A DNA stretch of 44,279 nucleotides from Acidobacteriota bacterium (GCA_021828245.1 JAKASC010000001.1:1-44279); one strand, 5' to 3'. Positions 11,671-17,939 are shown, numbered from the stretch's first letter. Numbers and translations: made by a program. The notes: generated by a model from the sequence alone, not told the origin.

Positions 11671-11735
11671 CCGCTAATCACATACCAAGAGCCGCAAAGG
11701 AAGCCAAACTGCGGCTACCTTTGCGCTACCCCGCT
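11671..11735 (+). repeat. 65-bp direct repeat A, copy 1 (left border of island)
   Basis: ccgctaatcacataccaagagccgcaaaggaagccaaactgcggctacctttgcgctaccccgct matches 17281-17345 at 61/65 positions in the same orientation, at an offset of exactly 5610 bp. Confidence 0.9.
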
Positions 11736-11792
11736 CCACAGCGGTGGTCGCCGCCTGATGCCCAAAAGAAACGTTTCCTCCGCCTCCAAAGG

Positions 11793-11871: not shown

Positions 11872-14370
11872 TCAGCCCGGTGGGGCGGCGAAGAGGGCGA
11901 GCAGCTCCTCTTTGGAAACTTCCTTGCGAAGGTCGTCGACTTCAACCACGCTGTCGAATAGATCCTTCTTCTTTTCGAGGAGTTCGCCTATGCGCTCTTC
12001 AATCGTTCCAAGAGTGTGAATCCGAAATACCTTCACAGCTTTTGTCTGGCCGATTCGGTGAACTCGGTCAGTTGCTTGATCCTCAACGGCGGGATTCCAC
12101 CATCTGTCGTAATGGACAACACAATTGGCTTCCGTCAGGGTCATGCCGAGTCCGCCAGCACCAAGGCTGATTAGAAAGAAGGAAGCCTCGCCCTTTTGGA
12201 ATCGATTCTTGAGTTCCGCTCTTTGGGCTACAGGCGTCGCCCCGTCTAGGTAGAGATAGGGGAGCTTGCGGTCTTCGAGAACCTTACGCAGAATCTGCAA
12301 CATCTCAGTGAACTGACTGAACACCAGAGCCTTTTCGCCCCCCTCAATTATCTCTTCGAGGATTTCCACAAAGGCTTCCAGCTTCCCTGACCGTTGGTAT
12401 ATCGTTTCATAATTCTTCTTGACTAGTGCGGGATGGCAACAGATCTGCTTGAGTCTCAAAATCGCGGTGAGTATCGAGGTGTCGATTTTGACCATGCTTC
12501 CGGGGAGGCGCTTAATCCTATCCCGTTCGGAAGCGGCATACGCTTTGTAAAGGTGCGCTTGTTCGGGAGTCAGTTCGCAATAACGGTCGAGTTGGATTTT
12601 CTCGGGAAGTTCGGATTCCACTTGGCTTTTTAGCCGACGAAGTTTGAAGGGAGCGATCTTCTTCTTAAGCGCTTCCACTGCGGTCCTGCTGCCCTCCTTC
12701 ATTATTGGAATTTCGAAGTTCGACCTAAATTGGGTCGCGGACCCCAAATAGGACGGCATCAAGAAATCGTAGAGGGACCAAAGCTCGCTCAATCTGTTTT
12801 CGATTGGCGTGCCCGTGAGGGCAAGTTTATGCTTCGCAACCAGCCTCTTGCAAGCCTTCGCGGTCGCAGTCTCGTGGTTCTTGATCTTCTGTGCCTCATC
12901 CAAGATCACGTAGTCCCAAACGATTTTTGAGAGACTCTCCACATCGTTGAGAACGGTCGTATAGGTTGTAAGTAGGGCGTCATAATGCTTAAACCCTGAA
13001 AGGAGCTTGTCTCGGCCCGGTCCGATATAACGCTTAACCCTGAAATCAAGGACTGACCGCCTGAACTTGGAAAAATCCTCCTCCCACGTGCTCAAGACGC
13101 TCGGTGGACATACGATCAACGATGTTCCTGGGTGTGCCTCGGACTGGGCGCATAGCAGGCAAACAATTGTCTGCACGGTCTTGCCGAGGCCCATTTCGTC
13201 AGCAAGGACTCCATTCAGTCCGTATTTCCTAAGAAAGCAGAGCCAGTCGTGTCCGTACTTTTGGTATTGACGGAGTTGACCTTGGAGGGTGTCCGGTATG
13301 GGACACTCATCAATTTTGGAAAATTCTGCGAGGCCCTGCACGAATTTAGCGTAAGCCTCGGACATATTGATGGTGCCGACTGAGGCGAGGAGCGATTGGA
13401 CCTCGGAGAAATTGCGCGTCGGAGTCCTGAATTGCTCATCAACATCTTCGACCTCTGGAACCTCCTTGATCTTGTGGGAGACCCGCGCGTGGGTTTCATT
13501 ATCGACCTTGATCCACGATTGCTCACGACGGATGAATTGTTGGCCCGTCGGGAGGTTGGCGACTTCGCTGTATGGCAACTTGAACCGTTCGGCTTCGTAT
13601 CGGACATCAAACCAGATCCACGGACCGTCCACGTGCAGTGAAACCTTTGGCTGAAATGAATCCGTCACAACCCTCTGCGCTTCGAGCCTCGGGTCTATGT
13701 GAACGTGGTGCTCAGCCCGCAATTTCTGAAGGTCATAAAGCAGGAAGAGAGGGATCTGGTCACCCGTGAGCGTGGATGTGCCGAGTTCATTAGAGAGGAT
13801 TGCGTACTTCTTTTCTTCTGGCTTGCGGTAAAAGCCCTTTGGCGCGTGGATGAATTTGGACCCTTCTAGAAACTTGGCCTCACCCTTCTTGTCGATCCGG
13901 GTAGAGAGGTCAGGGTCCACAAGCGAAGTCCTGACCTCGACCCGGTCTCCTTCCAAATTTACGTCGCGGGCATATTCGAGGGGCCGACTGTCGACTTTTA
14001 CTCCCTCTGCTTGCAGTGTGAATGCCGTGGCCGCCTTCGCTCGCAGGTAGAGGAGGATTTCAGGAACGTCTTTTTCGTGGAACTTAAAGCCGCGAGTCGG
14101 GTCGAAAACCGGGTCCCATTCCGCCAAGTGTCTGAGGGTCTGTCGGTTCTTTTGGGCGACCTTGAAATACCGCCCTCCGACCTTCACCCGTCGAGGAATG
14201 GTATTCAAATCGGTCAAGCGGTACGCTGCGTCTCGGTGAGAGAGATGCACATCCACATATAGGAATTCGGCGCCTTGAGAGACATCCACCTTAAGGTTGA
14301 TGTCACGAGTACCGGGGAACAACCGGGAGAAGGCAGCGACAACTCTGCTTCGAAGTGATCTCATTGCCAC
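11872..14370 (-). CDS. SNF2-family DEAD/DEAH-box helicase/translocase with ~350-aa N-terminal accessory domain
   Basis: SNF2_N motifs: LADEMGLGKTVQ (motif I), ILDEAQKIKN (DEAQ box, motif II), LALTGTPIENRLSELWSLYDF (motif III). Helicase_C motifs: ALVFSQFTEML, FLISLGAGGLGMTLTEAN, DRWWNPAVEDQATDRVHRIGQ. The N-terminal 350 aa has no motif I can name and may be a bacterial SNF2-associated domain. The start is GTG 14370 or ATG 14364, with no obvious SD. Confidence 0.9.
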   Translation of the reverse strand: MAMRSLRSRVVAAFSRLFPGTRDINLKVDVSQGAEFLYVDVHLSHRDAAYRLTDLNTIPRRVKVGGRYFKVAQKNRQTLRHLAEWDPVFDPTRGFKFHEKDVPEILLYLRAKAATAFTLQAEGVKVDSRPLEYARDVNLEGDRVEVRTSLVDPDLSTRIDKKGEAKFLEGSKFIHAPKGFYRKPEEKKYAILSNELGTSTLTGDQIPLFLLYDLQKLRAEHHVHIDPRLEAQRVVTDSFQPKVSLHVDGPWIWFDVRYEAERFKLPYSEVANLPTGQQFIRREQSWIKVDNETHARVSHKIKEVPEVEDVDEQFRTPTRNFSEVQSLLASVGTINMSEAYAKFVQGLAEFSKIDECPIPDTLQGQLRQYQKYGHDWLCFLRKYGLNGVLADEMGLGKTVQTIVCLLCAQSEAHPGTSLIVCPPSVLSTWEEDFSKFRRSVLDFRVKRYIGPGRDKLLSGFKHYDALLTTYTTVLNDVESLSKIVWDYVILDEAQKIKNHETATAKACKRLVAKHKLALTGTPIENRLSELWSLYDFLMPSYLGSATQFRSNFEIPIMKEGSRTAVEALKKKIAPFKLRRLKSQVESELPEKIQLDRYCELTPEQAHLYKAYAASERDRIKRLPGSMVKIDTSILTAILRLKQICCHPALVKKNYETIYQRSGKLEAFVEILEEIIEGGEKALVFSQFTEMLQILRKVLEDRKLPYLYLDGATPVAQRAELKNRFQKGEASFFLISLGAGGLGMTLTEANCVVHYDRWWNPAVEDQATDRVHRIGQTKAVKVFRIHTLGTIEERIGELLEKKKDLFDSVVEVDDLRKEVSKEELLALFAAPPG

Positions 14371-14484: not shown

Positions 14485-14715
14485 AGCAGGTAGATACAAG
14501 CGCAGAGGCGCGCGTCCTAGGCGCTTCTGTGCGGCGTTTGCGGCGTCGGCGACGGCAATCAGACGTTGGAAAACAATGGACCACAACCAGGTCAACGGCC
14601 GCAAGGGTTGAACGGCCCGGCGCGTGGCGCGGAGGTGGGGAGTGTGAAACTCTGCGGCTCTTTCCGGCGGGCACCGGCCCGAGCCGCAGAGGTTGCGCCG
14701 CGCAACCTCTGCGCT
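14485..14715 (+). repeat. ~225-bp direct repeat B, copy 1 (between methyltransferase stop and SNF2 promoter)
   Basis: Aligns with 16925-17148 in the same orientation, with about 14 substitutions and one 7-nt indel (roughly 93% identity by hand alignment). It ends in a 14-bp perfect hairpin at 14685-14713. Confidence 0.9.
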
Positions 14716-14781
14716 TGTATCTTAACTTCGTTGTGTTCAGAATCCTTCTGACGAAGGGTTGGGTTCGGCGGGAAGGCCGAT

Positions 14782-15972
14782 CTACCCCGCTGCGGGGCGC
14801 GCCTCTCCAGCGGGGTTGCGAGCGAGCTTTCTGATGAGGAGGATGGTTTCGTGCTTGGTGGTCTGCGTTCTTCTTCGGGCGCGGCGTGCGTCGGGAATCT
14901 CATCCACCAGCAACTTCTCGGCCGATGCGCAGCGATGGTAGAGGCTCCGAACGGTTTCCGCGAGCGTTGAGGCGGAGTCTCGGCGACGGCCGTCCCTGTG
15001 GTAGTCTCCCAGGACCAAGACAGCGCACTTGCCCGGCTTGAGCAGCCGCAGCATTTCGCCCAAGGCCAGGGTCATTTGCGGGACGTACACCCGCTCGCTG
15101 GAGGTTAGCCCCGCATCAATCTCCCGATAATCCTCTACGCCCAAAAACCAAAGCCTTAGCCTGTTGTCGCGGCCATAATCCAGCGCCCCGTAGTAGGGGG
15201 GGCTGGAAATAACGGCATCAACGGAGTTGTCCGCGAGCGGCAGGGACATGGCATTCTCGTGCAGCACAACGCGGTTCAGGTCCGGCCTGGGAGGTTCAAA
15301 CCTCCGATAGGCGCGCGCTATCTTTGCCAAGAACCGCGGCCGGACCGGCCGGTAGCAGTAGAGGTCAGGATATGCCGCCGGAGGGTATTTTTTAATCCGG
15401 AGGTACGGAACTAGGTGGCTGGCGGGATAGGAAAGGAAGCCGGGGCGGACATGGTGCAGAATGCCGAGAAGGCACGCTAGGAGGAAGTACTCCCGCCGGC
15501 GTTTCAGGACACTGGCCAAGGCCACAGCCTCCTGGAGGGTTTGAGGATGGAAAAACGCCCTGACCCACGCTGGCACTTCATCCACACTAACCTTTTCGTC
15601 GGCGGCCTGTTCGAGGCTCTGAAGAGCTCGTGCCGTCGCCTCGGCGTGCGTCGCGGGGGCCGACAGCTTCCCCATGGTCAAGACGTAGGCGTAAGGGTTA
15701 AGGTCATTGCCAATCGCATGGCGGCCACACAGGAGGGCCTCGAGGGGCACGACGCCCGACCCGCAAAAGGGGTCGAGCACCACGTCACCCTCACGGGTGA
15801 ACTCTTCGATGAGGGCACGAGCCATGCCGGATTTCATTTTTCCGACGTAGGGGGACAACTGGTGGATGGAGTTCTCCTTGGCATTGAAGCAGCCCTCCCA
15901 CAGAGACCCATCAATGCCGGCTCTCCCCGTGGCCGCGCTCGGCTGTTGAAATAGGCCTGGTTGCCTAAGCAT
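14782..15972 (-). CDS. alpha-class (X-I...TRD...IV order) N6-adenine/N4-cytosine DNA methyltransferase, SPPY type
   Basis: The AdoMet motif region is at the N-terminus: HQLSPYVGKMKSGMARALIEEFTREGDVVLDPFCGSGVVPLEALLCGRHAIGNDLNPYAY (motifs X and I). About 165 aa further on is the catalytic motif IV DAVISSPPYYGALDY, then MLRLLKPGKCAVLVLGD. ATG 15972 overlaps the upstream stop as ATGCTTAG. The longest track start is 15993. Confidence 0.85.
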   Translation of the reverse strand: MLRQPGLFQQPSAATGRAGIDGSLWEGCFNAKENSIHQLSPYVGKMKSGMARALIEEFTREGDVVLDPFCGSGVVPLEALLCGRHAIGNDLNPYAYVLTMGKLSAPATHAEATARALQSLEQAADEKVSVDEVPAWVRAFFHPQTLQEAVALASVLKRRREYFLLACLLGILHHVRPGFLSYPASHLVPYLRIKKYPPAAYPDLYCYRPVRPRFLAKIARAYRRFEPPRPDLNRVVLHENAMSLPLADNSVDAVISSPPYYGALDYGRDNRLRLWFLGVEDYREIDAGLTSSERVYVPQMTLALGEMLRLLKPGKCAVLVLGDYHRDGRRRDSASTLAETVRSLYHRCASAEKLLVDEIPDARRARRRTQTTKHETILLIRKLARNPAGEARPAAG

Positions 15973-16831
15973 TGGTGATGCTTTCCTCCACAACGTTACC
16001 GAGGTGCAGTATTCGAGTGCGCCTCATATAGACCTCTCTCCCGCCCCTGGCAGCCGAGACCAGATGAATCTCCACTGACCAGGTGTGCTTCGCTTGGTCG
16101 CGTGGCGCGACTCCGAAGACGTCCAGAACCATCGCTGGCAGGTAAAGGGACTCGAGCGAGTGGGTTGGAGGGGACGGCTGCTGGGGCGTGGGGCGCTCGC
16201 GGGGCATCAGGAAGATGTCAGGAGAGATTTGGTCGTTCGTCACGTGCCCTTTATACTTGGGACACCTTCGTAGAGGGCAGCCGCACAACTGGTCCTTGAA
16301 GAAAATCGCGTCCACCACTTTTCCGCGCCTCATCAGGTCGTTGGCGAGCCTGTTGACCACAATCGAGTGAACCCCTTGCGAAGGCTGGTTGATGATGGAG
16401 CCGTCCAGGTGGCACCACATCACAAACTCCTGCGCCCAGGGAGGCCGCTCTGTAATGGTGATGCTATTTCCTTCGCCGCCCTTCACGTCCAGGGCCGCGG
16501 CGACGCGGGGACGCTCCGTGAGGATAATCGTGAAGTCGTGGCGCGTGGCTTTCTTCGTTGGTTCGAATCCGGCAATCTTTGCACTGTTAGCCAGGCGCGA
16601 AAGGACATCGGCCACCATCTGATGGCGCTGGGTGAGCGAGGAGGCGATAAAACTGCCTCGAATCGTCTCTACGGCGGAGCGGAATATGCGTTTGGGGTGG
16701 TAGTCCTCCGGGTTGACCCCGGCGGACCGCAACACGTCGGGATGGCGGTCGTCGAGATTTCGTAAGAGGTCGATGGCAGGATTGATTTGCGCAAGGGCGG
16801 CCTGGTCGTGCGAGCAAGGTAATATGGGCAT
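15965..16831 (-). CDS. uncharacterised protein, putative PD-(D/E)xK restriction endonuclease partner of the methyltransferase
   Basis: ATG 16831 (MPILPCSHDQ...) is preceded by GGAGG. It contains RHDFTIILTERPRVAAALDVKGGEG, i.e. D-x15-D-V-K, which fits the PD-(D/E)xK pattern, plus a Cys/His cluster CGCPLRRCPKYKGH. It is translationally coupled to the methyltransferase by an 8-nt overlap. The function is inferred only from the motif and context. Confidence 0.45.
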   Translation of the reverse strand: MPILPCSHDQAALAQINPAIDLLRNLDDRHPDVLRSAGVNPEDYHPKRIFRSAVETIRGSFIASSLTQRHQMVADVLSRLANSAKIAGFEPTKKATRHDFTIILTERPRVAAALDVKGGEGNSITITERPPWAQEFVMWCHLDGSIINQPSQGVHSIVVNRLANDLMRRGKVVDAIFFKDQLCGCPLRRCPKYKGHVTNDQISPDIFLMPRERPTPQQPSPPTHSLESLYLPAMVLDVFGVAPRDQAKHTWSVEIHLVSAARGGREVYMRRTRILHLGNVVEESITNA

Positions 16832-16860
16832 CTGGGGCCGGGGCCTCCGGGTTCCGGCCA

Positions 16861-16869
16861 ATTATACCA
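16861..16869 (-). promoter_or_regulatory. extended -10 promoter element (TGGTATAAT on minus strand) for the nuclease-methyltransferase operon
   Basis: The reverse complement of 16861-16869 is TGGTATAAT, about 30 nt upstream of ATG 16831. No convincing -35 is present, which is consistent with an extended -10 promoter. Confidence 0.4.
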
Positions 16870-16924
16870 CGCTCCCTGACACTCCCGCCGCGCGAGCTTC
16901 TCGCACGGGCCCTTCGATGTGCTG

Positions 16925-17148
16925 AGCAGGTAGCGCAGAGGCGCGCGTCCTAGGCGCTTCTGTGCGGCCTTTGTGCCGTCGGCGCCGGCAATCAGACGTT
17001 GGAAAACAATGGACGGCGACCAGGTCAACGGCCGCGAGGGTTGAGCGGCCCGGCGCGTGGCGCGGAGTTGCGGAGTGTGAAACTCTGCGGTTCTTTCCGG
17101 CGGGCACCGGCCCGAGCCGCAGAGGTTGCGCCGCGCAACCTCTGCGCT
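16925..17148 (+). repeat. ~225-bp direct repeat B, copy 2 (upstream of the nuclease-methyltransferase operon)
   Basis: See copy 1. It ends in the identical 14-bp hairpin at 17118-17146. Confidence 0.9.
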
Positions 17149-17280
17149 ACTAACTAACTTTTCCTACGAGGCGGATGGGTTTCCCTCCAAGGCCGCTTCG
17201 AGCGTCCAGAGGTACCGGTGACCCATTGTTCGACGGAAATTCTTTTTGCTCGCGAGCAGCGGGGTTTGCCGCCCGCGCCA

Positions 17281-17345
17281 CCGCGAATCCCACACCAAGA
17301 GCCGCAAAGGAAGCCGAACTGCGGCTACCTTTGCGCTACCCCGCT
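17281..17345 (+). repeat. 65-bp direct repeat A, copy 2 (right border of island)
   Basis: 61/65 identical to 11671-11735. It is immediately followed by a 10-bp perfect hairpin, ctgcaattgc-ccacgtc-gcaattgcag (17344-17370). Confidence 0.9.
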
Positions 17346-17405
17346 GCAATTGCCCACGTCGCAATTGCAGTCCAGGGGTGCCGTTTTCTGCGGCCGGGCG
17401 GCGAA

Positions 17406-17939
17406 TTAGGATTGTTTTTGCAAAGCGGGCAGGATGTACTTGGTCAACAGTTTTTCGTAGCGCGCGCGGACTCGATGAGTAATTGACGCGGGGGCGGGCG
17501 GCTCGGCGTCGTTGGCGCGGAGGTAGAGGTCTCCCGTTTCGCCGAAAGGCCCCGCGTGAATTTTTTCAAAGGTTTCAATGTCATAGCCGCCGAACTTGAA
17601 AACCTGTGCCGGGGTGTAGGTTTTTAGTTGCGAGGGCGTCAGCTTGGCCACCGAGCGGACATGAATTTGAAGCCGGCCGAAAAATTTCTTTTTGTTGTAA
17701 TCCACGCTGAGAACGCGCTGATATTCCTGAGCGGGGTTTTGAGGATTTTTGTATATGCCCGCGAGGAGGCAGAAATTTTTGAGCTTGCCGCCAAAAGAAT
17801 TATTCAGAAGTTGATAGAGCTCCGGCGTGACATCGCCCACACTGCTGAGGGGGGCGCTTCGGTGTTTGCGTCGGGCCAATGCGCCGAGGCTCAGCGTCAG
17901 GGTCGCTGCCAACGTGAGCGTCCAAACCTTCGCCGCCAT
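17406..17939 (-). CDS. hypothetical secreted protein
   Basis: ATG 17939 is preceded by GGGAGGG. Signal peptide MAAKVWTLTLAATLTLSLGALA. I recognise no family. The track start at 17975 lacks an SD. Confidence 0.6.
   Translation of the reverse strand: MAAKVWTLTLAATLTLSLGALARRKHRSAPLSSVGDVTPELYQLLNNSFGGKLKNFCLLAGIYKNPQNPAQEYQRVLSVDYNKKKFFGRLQIHVRSVAKLTPSQLKTYTPAQVFKFGGYDIETFEKIHAGPFGETGDLYLRANDAEPPAPASITHRVRARYEKLLTKYILPALQKQS

What the first reader, a model, noticed from the sequence alone, without database searches (positions are those of the whole stretch)
16925..17150. Element B is a highly structured ~225-nt module: four GCAGAGG/CCTCTGC motifs, two mutually exclusive folds, and compensatory differences between copies
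Seen in sequence, coordinates for copy 2 with copy 1 in brackets. The 5' end GTAGCGCAGAGG at 16930-16941 is complementary to the 3' end CCTCTGCGCTAC at 17139-17150. In copy 1 the 7-nt 'insertion' at the 5' end (AGATACA, within 14492-14508) is exactly complementary to unique sequence just past the 3' end of the repeat (TGTATCT, within 14706-14722). This gives a perfect 17-bp terminal stem, so the terminal pairing is kept with different sequences in the two copies. Internally, CTCTGCGGTTC at 17083-17093 [CTCTGCGGCTC 14650-14660] pairs with GAGCCGCAGAG at 17114-17124 [14681-14691]. The single C-to-T difference turns a G-C pair into a G-U pair, which is tolerated only at the RNA level. The second strand of that helix also forms a perfect 14-bp hairpin with the 3' terminal motif at 17118-17146 [14685-13]. 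The result is two exclusive conformations: a nested closing stem plus inner hairpin, versus a 3' hairpin. Inference: this could be a switch-like structured RNA (cis-regulatory or ncRNA), a MITE-like element with terminal inverted repeats, or an array of protein-binding sites. I do not recognise it as any Rfam family.
Basis: seen in the sequence. Interest (0 to 1): 0.7.

Follow-up and report, generated by a model that had tools for sequence, protein, structure and literature searches.

The report
REP-hairpin cluster flanking a restriction-modification operon
The 225-nt "structured module" is a cluster of repetitive extragenic palindromes (REPs) from a family linked to a REP-associated transposase in peat-soil Acidobacteria, present as two local copies around a restriction-modification operon; it is an ordinary kind of bacterial repeat, not a new riboswitch-like RNA.

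Summary
The sequence observations are correct. Two 224-230-nt copies (14492-14722 and 16925-17150, 93-94% identical) carry the stated inverted motifs and fold better than shuffles.

The interpretation mostly dissolves once relatives are collected. Every GCAGAGG/CCTCTGC arm belongs to a REP hairpin with consensus (AGCGG)GGTAGC-GCAGAGG-stem/loop-CCTCTGC-GGCTCTT. I found about 270 such REPs in 121 metagenome contigs. Their unconstrained upper stem covaries strongly, they mostly sit as GTAG-outward pairs, and in about 25 contigs they flank a 173-aa gene that matches the REP-associated tyrosine transposase (RAYT) model.

Element B is REP (forward) + spacer + REP tail fragment + REP (reverse). That makes it a GTAG-outward REP dimer or trimer, like a REPIN or BIME. 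The "mutually exclusive folds" are repeated REP arms. The "compensatory 7-nt change" is an alternative REP head (AGATACAAGC) that recurs elsewhere. Seven B copies show no covariation for B-wide helices, and there is no Rfam match.

One thing is unusual. The B composite exists only in this species and sits at three loci, each next to a DNA methyltransferase. Copies within a locus are each other's closest relatives, which suggests local duplication or recombination around defence cassettes.

Verdict: new member of a known kind, modest interest.

The parts
16925..17150 (+). Element B copy 2: a REP cluster (a GTAG-outward dimer with a third, half unit inside).
   Evidence: Direct repeat D1; alignment; REP-model hits inside it.
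14492..14722 (+). Element B copy 1: the same composite, 93-94% identical to copy 2, with the alternative AGATACAAGC head at both ends.
16923..16973 (+). REP unit 1 of copy 2: GTAG head, GCAGAGG arm, and a degenerate 3' arm TCTGTGC that pairs through G.T.
   Evidence: nhmmer with the REP model: E 3e-7 against all loci and 2e-10 on B alone. It forms a hairpin in the MFE fold.
17083..17098 (+). Half REP: CTCTGCGGTTCTTTCC, matching the 3' arm plus tail of the REP consensus (copy 1 equivalent at 14650-14665).
   Evidence: REP model positions 42-57 aligned here. This arm varies without compensation among B copies.
17114..17156 (-). REP unit 3 of copy 2, reverse orientation: GTAG + CGCAGAGGTTGCGC-G-GCGCAACCTCTGCG + GCTC tail.
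   Evidence: REP model hit E 0.0033 against all loci and 2e-6 on B alone; perfect 14-bp palindrome (I15).
14499..14540 (+). REP unit 1 of copy 1 (alternative head at 14492-14501).
14681..14722 (-). REP unit 3 of copy 1 (alternative head at 14713-14722 on the - strand).
   Evidence: (I14).
11682..11735 (-). The lower stem is GCAAAGG/CCTTTGC, a compensated variant, and the upper stem is AGCCR/CGGCT.
   Evidence: Best REP-model hit in the window, E 1.2e-13; sequence.
17292..17345 (-). Single canonical REP ('element A' copy 2), 125 nt to the right of B copy 2.
   Evidence: REP-model hit E 4.9e-13; D2.
15965..16831 (-). Type II restriction endonuclease gene (288 aa), lying between the two B copies.
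   Evidence: PADLOC REase_II E 3.7e-24; 288-aa homologues always sit next to the methylase.
14782..15972 (-). DNA methyltransferase gene (396 aa), lying between the two B copies.
   Evidence: Pfam N6_N4_Mtase; PADLOC MTase_II.
11872..14364 (-). SNF2-family helicase gene (830 aa, ZorD/DpdE-like), lying between REP A1 and B copy 1.
   Evidence: Pfam SNF2-rel_dom and Helicase_C; PADLOC; the exact 830-aa product is called in independent assemblies.

Best explanation
Element B is a composite of repetitive extragenic palindromes (REPs) of the GTAG-headed type. Reading the + strand, it consists of:
- a forward REP (GTAG head, GCAGAGG arm, partly decayed second arm);
- a spacer of about 110 nt;
- the tail half of another forward REP;
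- a 20-nt GC-rich loop;
- a reverse REP that ends in CTAC.

The GTAG heads therefore face outward. This is the arrangement of REP 'head-head' dimers, of REPINs, and of the REPs that flank RAYT transposase genes.

Shown:
- The unit hairpin belongs to a large family in peat and soil metagenomes.
- The part of the stem that my search pattern did not fix covaries strongly.
- The family is physically linked to RAYT genes.

Inferred from what is known of REP/RAYT systems:
- The hairpins form on single-stranded DNA and are the substrate of a RAYT encoded elsewhere in the genome.
- When transcribed in the 3' UTR of the methylase or the 5' region of neighbouring genes, they may act as mRNA-end stabilisers or weak terminators.

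The two window copies are most likely not independent transpositions. They are each other's closest relatives (94%, against 74-87% to other full-length copies). [quoted passage not shown]
For: (1) Family.
- A REP model built from 149 unique instances finds 270 hits in 121 loci.
- It also finds six hits in the window, all within 11.6-17.4 kb: both ends of each B copy, A1 and A2.

(2) Structure.
- In 129 unique 49-nt REPs, the four upper-stem pairs are 98% paired with AT<->GC and GC<->CG swaps. Shuffles average 74%, with a maximum of 78%.
- The family also has a conserved T.T mismatch and a conserved G.T closing pair.

(3) Orientation.
- Neighbouring REPs within 400 nt are +/- in 73 cases, -/- in 14, +/+ in 5 and -/+ in 3.

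(4) Transposase link.
- About 25 loci carry a gene between a + REP and a - REP.
- Its product scores 113 bits against NCBIfam NF047646, 'REP-associated tyrosine transposase' (cutoff 80).
- It also matches Pfam Y1_Tnp and E. coli TnpArep (PDB 4ER8, E 1e-18).
- Y1_Tnp is the commonest Pfam family among ORFs within 600 nt of REPs: 12 of 150.

(5) B decomposes into REP units.

(6) The 17-bp stem of copy 1 is the alternative head AGATACAAGC. It is seen at 7 other REPs in 6 metagenome loci (two of them, L124 and L137, identical there), including both REPs that flank a RAYT in L104.

(7) Local duplication.
- Copies within a locus are the most similar to each other.
- In L014 the duplicated segment of about 300 nt includes about 200 nt of non-REP sequence.

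(8) Literature.
- GTAG REPs, predominant head-head dimers with conserved spacers, trimers and heterodimers are described in PMC3733652.
- REPINs as inverted REP pairs served by RAYTs are described in PMC3337134 and PMC3116915.
- RM genes flanked by long direct repeats and 'long target duplication' are described in PMC2853133.
Against: - No RAYT gene lies in the 44-kb window. I could not scan the rest of the source genome, so the REP-RAYT link rests on related metagenome contigs, not on this organism.
- B is longer than most pairs: about 190 nt start to start, against a mode of about 100 nt.
- B is rare. A B-specific 23-mer found it in only one species-level genome, at three loci. That is unlike an actively spreading REPIN population.
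- REPs are absent from the other roughly 38 kb of the window.
- The most conserved part of B is the loop TTCCGGCRGGCACCGGCYCGAGCC, not the REP heads. The REP model does not explain this.
- No empty site carrying a single B copy was found, so the duplication mechanism is untested. The sister species lack both the RM operon and the REPs.
Confidence: 0.82

Rival explanations
1. B is a boundary or landing-pad repeat of a cassette system. Defence cassettes (RM operons, SNF2, DUF3800) enter or move between B copies, either by recombination at the hairpins or because RAYT can mobilise whatever lies between suitably oriented REP ends. On this view B is functionally closer to an attC or att site than to a passive REP cluster.
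For: - The B-specific 23-mer scan of 185,579 species genomes found B only in MAG YP5.bin2, at three loci.
- Each of those loci holds a DNA methyltransferase within about 1 kb of B: this RM operon, a different MTase + NgoMIV-type REase, and DUF3800 + MTase.
- Gene cassettes are bracketed by same-orientation B copies in four cases.
- The RM homology with unrelated genomes (78% nt) stops just inside the B copies, at 14825-16870.
- Two different left-hand junctions of the same RM operon exist in one sample (L002 versus L143).
Against: - No integrase, recombinase or transposase lies in the window.
- There are no attC-type core sites.
- The same RM operon sits in other genomes without B.
- In the wider REP family, neighbouring genes are ordinary, and no methylase family appears among the 25 commonest families listed.
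- The RM operon sits between a reverse REP and a forward REP, which is the opposite of the RAYT-flanking arrangement.
- Only two genomes and three independent loci support it.
Confidence: 0.12
2. B is a cis-regulatory or non-coding structured RNA that switches between a closed form (terminal stem plus inner hairpin) and a 3' hairpin form.
For: - The + strand folds well below shuffles (z -4.6 and -5.8), and better than the - strand.
- The alternative pairings exist in the sequence.
- The core loop is highly conserved among B copies.
Against: - There is no Rfam match, even at E<=1.
- RNAalifold gives a positive (unfavourable) covariation term on 7 copies.
Of the inner hairpin's 11 pairs, 5 depart only by unpaired cells.
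- All helix arms are REP arms shared with hundreds of unrelated loci.
- The + strand is antisense to all flanking genes.
- A low folding energy is expected for any cluster of palindromes.
Confidence: 0.04
3. B is a MITE derived from an insertion sequence by internal deletion, moved by a conventional (DDE) transposase.
For: - It has terminal inverted repeats of 12-17 bp and is about 225 nt long, with several copies.
- IS110-family transposases occur near REPs in two metagenome loci.
Against: - No target-site duplication: the flanks are AGCAG(GT)| ... |TAAC in both copies.
- The spacer shows no remnant of the RAYT gene (best E 0.39 over 72 frames).
- The 'TIRs' are the conserved heads of REP hairpins.
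- Partial copies share the 3' end and are embedded in larger local duplications.
Confidence: 0.02

Closest known systems
GTAG-type REPs and their head-head dimers and trimers (Di Nocera et al. 2013, PMC3733652; Nunvar et al. 2010)
   Same: - A short imperfect palindrome with an unpaired GTAG at one end and a conserved tail at the other.
- Units mostly paired with the GTAG ends outward.
- Heterodimers made of two stem variants, trimers and clusters all occur.
- They are extragenic, often lie downstream of genes, and are linked to RAYT genes flanked by the same repeats.
   Different: - That survey listed GTAG REPs in Proteobacteria, Cyanobacteria, Chloroflexi and the PVC group. For Acidobacteria it reported only tyrosine transposases flanked by long TIRs. 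Here the host is a Terriglobia/Acidobacteria lineage.
- B's spacer (about 150 nt between the two outer REPs) is longer than the 20-100 bp given there.
- Copy 1 lacks GTAG at its right end and carries the head AGATACAAGC.
REPINs of Pseudomonas and Enterobacteria (Bertels and Rainey 2011, PMC3116915, PMC3337134)
   Same: Two inverted REPs plus a spacer that can fold into one long hairpin. They are non-autonomous and associated with a usually single-copy RAYT. Symmetric changes in both arms occur.
   Different: - REPINs form populations of tens to hundreds of near-identical copies dispersed across intergenic regions.
- B has about 7-10 copies at three loci, 73-94% identical, and the copies within a locus are the closest to each other.
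- Mobility was not shown.
BIMEs of E. coli (mosaics of Y and Z REPs with linker motifs)
   Same: A mosaic of two REP subtypes in alternating orientation, with conserved non-REP linkers. The conserved linker may be a protein-binding site. This comparison rests on my own knowledge.
   Different: There is no sequence relationship. IHF or gyrase binding was not tested, and the linker here is longer.
[quoted passage not shown] 2010, PMC2853133)
   Same: A Type II RM operon with no mobility gene, bracketed by 224-300-nt direct repeats 90-94% identical. That paper reports repeats such as 417/423 and 384/412 bp.
   Different: - The defining evidence, a related genome with one copy of the repeat at an empty site, was not found.
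- Here the repeat is itself a REP cluster, a case that paper does not mention: 'REP' and 'palindrom' give no whole-word matches in its main text.
Integron attC sites
   Same: Structured, imperfectly palindromic repeats in the same orientation between gene cassettes. The pairing is kept while the sequences differ.
   Different: - There are no RYYYAAC/GTTRRRY core sites and no IntI gene in the window.
- B is 225 nt against 57-141 nt for attC (the attC size range is from my own knowledge).
- The repeat family is linked to a Y1 (HUH) transposase, not to a tyrosine recombinase.

Membership tests
REP (GTAG superfamily) | Short imperfect palindrome that forms a stem-loop, with the stem kept across copies. 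| tested here: met
   In 129 unique units, the lower stem is 99-100% paired (partly fixed by the search pattern). The unconstrained upper stem is 98% paired with compensatory swaps, against 74% in shuffles. B's end units match the REP model.
REP (GTAG superfamily) | Unpaired GTAG tetranucleotide at one end of the palindrome. | tested here: met
   GGTAGC precedes the stem in the family consensus, although the orientation rule I used required it. It is present at both ends of B copy 2 and at A1 and A2. B copy 1 carries the alternative head AGATACAAGC, with GTAG kept only on its left side.
REP (GTAG superfamily) | Many extragenic copies within one genome. | tested here: inconclusive
   There are 270 hits in 121 metagenome or genome loci, but only 6 units in this 44-kb window, all within 11.6-17.4 kb.
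REP/RAYT system (REPtron) | A RAYT (Y1/HUH tyrosine transposase) gene flanked by inverted REPs of the same family. | tested here: met
   Met in related contigs, not in this genome. About 25 loci have a + REP, the gene, then a - REP. The product matches NF047646 at 113 bits (cutoff 80), Pfam PF01797, and PDB 4ER8. No RAYT lies in the window.
REPIN | [quoted passage not shown] | tested here: met
   Forward REP at 16923-16973 and reverse REP at 17114-17156. The MFE of copy 1 closes through the terminal stem, whereas that of copy 2 folds into local hairpins.
REPIN | A replicating population: many near-identical copies dispersed in the genome. | tested here: not met
   The B-specific 23-mer matches 7 sites at three loci in the only genome that has B. 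Identities are 73-94%, and the nearest relative of a copy is usually the other copy at the same locus. MAG assemblies may undercount repeats.
[quoted passage not shown] | RM genes with no mobility gene, bracketed by long direct repeats. | tested here: met
   224-230 nt at 93% in the window; about 300 nt at 90% in L014 and 160 nt at 91% in L015. No integrase or transposase was found.
[quoted passage not shown] | A related genome with an empty site that carries one copy of the repeated sequence. | tested here: inconclusive
   The conspecific genome L001 has the RM operon and flanking B copies. Sister species at 76% nt identity have neither the RM operon nor the REPs, and synteny ends at window 17413.
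Integron cassette array (attC) | R''/R' core sites (RYYYAAC ... GTTRRRY) and an IntI integrase nearby. | tested here: not met
   No such cores are found at the ends of B (read). No integrase is found among the window's ORFs.
MITE | Terminal inverted repeats plus a target-site duplication. | tested here: not met
   TIRs are present, but the flanks are not duplicated...AGCAG|GTAGC...GCTAC|TAAC....
Structured regulatory RNA (riboswitch-like or ncRNA) | A match to a described family, or covariation that supports the proposed helices. | tested here: not met
   Rfam gives nothing at gathering threshold or at E<=1. The covariation term is +2.57. There are 0 compensatory pairs in the terminal and inner helices. 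Only 7 copies were available, so power is low.

The most novel reading that the evidence does not exclude
The B-type REP cluster is not just a passive repeat. It may be the recurrent boundary or landing pad of small defence cassettes in this Acidobacterial species. On this reading, RM operons and similar genes are captured, duplicated or exchanged at REP-hairpin clusters, either by hairpin-stimulated recombination with long target duplication or by RAYT acting on REP ends that bracket a cassette. That would link REP/RAYT systems to the mobility of restriction-modification genes.
Probability: 0.15. Interest if true: 0.6.

Novelty: new member of a known kind. Interest (0 to 1): 0.3.

Why it matters
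The finding mainly removes a false lead: a well-folding 225-nt repeat with alternative pairings is a cluster of REP hairpins, not a new riboswitch-like RNA.

It also documents a GTAG-headed REP family with its RAYT transposase in peat-soil Acidobacteria. A 2013 survey reported only TIR-flanked tyrosine transposases for that phylum.

The one point worth following is that the composite form occurs only next to DNA methyltransferase or restriction cassettes, as local duplicates. If REP clusters prove to be preferred sites for the gain and reshuffling of defence genes, that would give the still-unexplained 'long target duplication' route of RM mobility a concrete substrate.

Tried and rejected
- Rfam at gathering threshold on the window and at E<=1 on 16850-17400: no match.
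- tRNA or tmRNA as an attachment site: none in the window.
- blastn of B against plasmids and phages: no match. The exact 27-mer hairpin in viral contigs: none. The looser hairpin pattern hit one viral contig with a GCAAAGG hairpin and no REP head; I did not pursue it.
- B as part of the RM cassette: rejected. The same RM operon at 78% nt identity in L006-L012 has no B, and the homology ends at 14825-16870.
- The B spacer as a decayed RAYT gene: rejected. A profile of 18 RAYTs against all six frames of every B copy gives a best E of 0.39. The weak tblastn hit (E 0.19 on 6 kb) did not hold up.
- A general association of this REP family with methylases: not seen among 150 ORFs near REPs. I prepared the 'far' control set but did not run it, because the near set already showed no methylase family.
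- Integron reading: no core sites and no integrase.
- Empty-site search through NamZ orthologues: the relatives at 85-86% protein identity lack both the RM operon and the REPs, so it is uninformative about the duplication.
- In one search my REP1 helix was entered one column out of register. Only the 3' hairpin rows of that call are used.
- The Chloroflexia and Bradymonadia hits of the 23-mer (L013, L017) share only those 23 nt and are chance matches.
- One literature search timed out.

Full report
**1. Observation**

The region reads as described.
- The repeat finder gives one 224-nt direct repeat, 14499-14722 and 16932-17155, 93% identical. An alignment with flanks extends it by the shared AGCAGGT, with a 7-nt indel near the 5' end of copy 1.
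- The 12-nt terminal complement of copy 2 is present (read). The perfect 17-bp terminal inverted repeat of copy 1 (I4) and the perfect 14-bp 3' hairpin in both copies (I14, I15) are all.
- GCGCAGAGG occurs 6 times in the window against 0.85 expected.
- The + strand folds at -128.6 and -133.1 kcal/mol (z -4.6 and -5.8). The - strand folds less well.

**2. Surroundings**

- The two copies bracket a Type II restriction enzyme gene (15965-16831, minus strand) and a DNA methyltransferase gene (14782-15972, minus strand).
- To the left of copy 1 lies an SNF2 helicase gene (11872-14364, minus strand).
- A second, 68-nt repeat lies at 11671-11738 and 17281-17348. It brackets the whole 5.6-kb block.
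- The rest of the window is housekeeping: UvrA, UvrC, GH97, a NamZ/beta-lactamase fusion, a solute symporter, succinate dehydrogenase, RNase J. No integrase or transposase is present.
- Rfam and tRNA scans find nothing.
- The arrangement is real. It recurs at 99.9-100% identity in an NCBI assembly (GCA_027357685.1) and in an ENA assembly.

**3. Related copies of B**

- Homologues of the restriction enzyme led to a conspecific genome, L001/L016 = MAG 'Acidobacteria bacterium YP5.bin2'. Its flanks are 96% identical in nucleotides and its RM operon 93%.
- That genome has B upstream of the RM operon, a diverged B fused to an A-type hairpin downstream, and a 3' half copy nearby.
- The same RM operon at 78% nucleotide identity in other genomes (L006-L012) has no B. 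The homology stops at 14825-16870, just inside the B copies. B is therefore not part of the RM cassette.
- A B-specific 23-mer scanned over 185,579 species genomes hit only that MAG, at three loci. Two other hits were 23-nt chance matches.
- The other two loci hold a different methylase plus an NgoMIV-type restriction enzyme, and a DUF3800 gene next to a methylase. In both cases the cassette is again bracketed by full or partial B copies in one orientation.

**4. The unit is a REP**

- Aligning all copies showed that every B copy, full or partial, and 'element A' keep the 3' hairpin GAGCC-GCAGAGG-loop-CCTCTGC-GCTAC in some form. The A elements have GCAAAGG/CCTTTGC and a different upper stem.
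Judging by the contig names these are mostly peat and bog samples.
- The hairpins have the consensus (AGCGG)GGTAGC GCAGAGG T GGGCG-loop-GCCC T CCTCTGC GGCTCTT. That is a GTAG head, an imperfect palindrome and a conserved tail.
- In 129 unique 49-nt instances, the four upper-stem pairs, which my pattern did not constrain, are 98% paired with AT<->GC and GC<->CG exchanges. Shuffles give 74% on average and 78% at most. A T.T mismatch and a G.T closing pair are conserved.
- The invariance of the lower stem is partly imposed by the search pattern, so it is not evidence.

**5. Pairs and the transposase**

- A profile of the unit finds 270 hits in 121 loci.
- Neighbours within 400 nt are forward-then-reverse in 73 cases. 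The other three arrangements total 22. The start-to-start spacing peaks near 100 nt and runs up to about 190 nt.
- About 25 loci carry a gene between a forward and a reverse REP.
- Its 173-aa product scores 113 bits on NCBIfam NF047646, 'REP-associated tyrosine transposase' (cutoff 80). It also matches Pfam Y1_Tnp and aligns to E. coli TnpArep, PDB 4ER8, at E 1e-18.
- Y1_Tnp is the commonest Pfam family among 150 ORFs lying within 600 nt of REPs (12 members). Two IS110 transposases also appear.
- This is the known REP/RAYT arrangement (PMC3733652, PMC3337134).

**6. Anatomy of B**

The REP profile aligns to three places in B:
- the 5' end, forward, with a decayed second arm TCTGTGC that still pairs through G.T;
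- the 3' end, reverse, with a shortened perfect palindrome;
- in between, CTCTGCGG(C/T)TCTT, which matches only the 3' arm and tail of the consensus.

- The 'four motifs' are four intact arms out of six.
- The 'inner hairpin' is the tail of the half unit pairing with the tail of the reverse unit.
- The 'alternative folds' exist because all units share the same arms.

In the terms of PMC3733652, B is a head-head heterodimer (GTAG ends outward) with a third, decayed unit inside its long spacer. In the terms of PMC3116915, it is a REPIN-like doublet.

**7. The compensatory argument**

- The extra 7 nt at both ends of copy 1 form the head AGATACAAGC.
- The same head, allowing up to 2 mismatches, occurs at 7 REPs in 6 metagenome loci (L082 twice, L098, L104 twice, L124 and L137, the last two identical there). 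In L104 it is on both REPs that flank a RAYT gene.
- It is therefore a family-level head variant present at both ends of one doublet, not a paired mutation that preserves an RNA helix.
- How both ends come to share a head type is unexplained. Hairpin-templated repair and selection by a cognate RAYT are both possible, but neither is tested.
- Across seven B copies, RNAalifold gives a positive covariation term and only local hairpins.
Of the inner hairpin's 11 pairs, 5 depart only by unpaired cells.
- With seven copies the power is low, but nothing supports a B-wide RNA fold.

**8. Why two copies here**

- Pairwise identities show that copies at one locus are each other's nearest relatives. B1-B2 is 94%, against 74-87% to other full-length copies. 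Even the positional orthologue of B2 in L001 is only 86% identical, although the flanking genes are 96% identical.
- In L014 the duplicated segment is about 300 nt long and includes about 200 nt of non-REP DNA.
- This pattern fits local duplication or gene conversion linked to cassette gain, as in 'insertion with long target duplication' of RM genes (PMC2853133). It does not fit independent REPIN transposition.
- The decisive evidence, an empty site with one copy, is missing. Sister species at 76% nucleotide identity have neither REPs nor the RM operon, and synteny ends at 17413.
- The conspecific L001 has a different left junction. Both junction types occur in one sample, ERZ27237313.

**9. 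What it probably does**

Shown:
- It is a cluster of REP hairpins from a RAYT-linked family.

Inferred from established REP biology (PMC3733652, and the E. coli TnpArep work cited there):
- The hairpins form on single-stranded DNA and are recognised by a RAYT encoded elsewhere.
- On the minus-strand mRNA they lie 59 nt after the methylase stop codon and about 100 nt before the restriction gene start, where they could stabilise 3' ends or attenuate read-through.
- A promoter-like site (14444-14415, minus strand) and a good terminator (11816-11800, minus strand) suggest that the SNF2 gene is a separate transcription unit.

Unexplained:
- The most conserved part of B is the linker TTCCGGCRGGCACCGGCYCGAGCC.
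- The composite occurs only beside methylase or restriction cassettes.

**10. Verdict**

- Novelty: a new member of a known kind. It is a GTAG REP/RAYT family in Acidobacteria, and a rare composite form that brackets defence cassettes.
- Interest is modest at 0.3. A minority reading (probability about 0.15) is that REP clusters act as landing pads for RM cassettes, which would be more interesting.

Noticed in passing
window 14492-14508 and 14706-14722; L104 36-52 and 712-728; L082 1675 and 257; L098 1517; L124 604; L137 2831: There is an alternative REP head, AGATACAAGC, in place of GGGTAGC. In B copy 1 and in the L104 REPtron both REPs of the pair carry it, so the head type is coordinated between the two ends. 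The cause is unknown.
   Followed up: partly
L014 2473-2769 and 5390-5691; L015 4442-4601 and 5566-5725: In MAG YP5.bin2, two further defence cassettes are bracketed by direct duplications that include B: MTase + NgoMIV-type REase, and DUF3800 next to an MTase. In L014 the duplication also covers about 200 nt of non-REP DNA. All three B loci in that genome are next to a DNA methyltransferase.
   Followed up: partly
L006 165-218 and 3106-3330 (also L007, L008): In another lineage, the homologous RM operon is flanked by fragments of a RAYT-like gene. An N-terminal 75 aa with the HUH-type motif LPDHGHAI lies on the right and an 18-aa fragment on the left, forming a 54-nt direct repeat. Pfam does not recognise the fragment.
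   Followed up: partly
L002 versus L143 (both from ENA sample ERZ27237313); window 14723-14781: The same RM operon has two different left junctions in one sample: B + Cys/Met-lyase gene in L002, and B1 + SNF2 + UvrC side in L143. The breakpoint lies at the B copy, so these are either two strains or a rearrangement at the repeat.
   Followed up: partly
L144 1-109 (Logan DRR872537): In this short contig, the B copy next to SNF2 is 100% identical to B2 over its first 109 nt rather than to B1. It is either a B1/B2 recombinant or an assembly switch inside the repeat.
   Followed up: no
window 12001-14000: The SNF2 (ZorD/DpdE-like) gene region has 50-53% G+C, against about 60% elsewhere. It has its own promoter-like site and a strong terminator, so it was probably acquired separately from the RM operon.
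   Followed up: no
window 14650-14691 and 17083-17124: The linker TTCCGGCRGGCACCGGCYCGAGCC, between the half REP and the reverse REP, is the most conserved stretch of B. It varies only at the two degenerate positions (and at one further base in the L015 copies) in copies that are otherwise only 73% identical. The REP model does not account for this.
   Followed up: no
L015 4380-4460: Two REP hairpins lie in tandem, in the same orientation, at the end of a partial B copy. This is a head-to-tail arrangement, which is rare in the family (14 -/- and 5 +/+ pairs against 73 +/-).
   Followed up: no
metagenome loci near REPs (alignment A5): Two IS110-family transposases (DEDD_Tnp_IS110 / Transposase_20) are among the ORFs within 600 nt of REPs. 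From my own knowledge, IS110/IS1111 elements are known to target REPs in other bacteria.
   Followed up: no
L025 3174-3875 and 5003-5798: Two identical RAYT genes, each with its own flanking REPs, lie 1.8 kb apart on one contig. RAYTs are usually described as single-copy.
   Followed up: no
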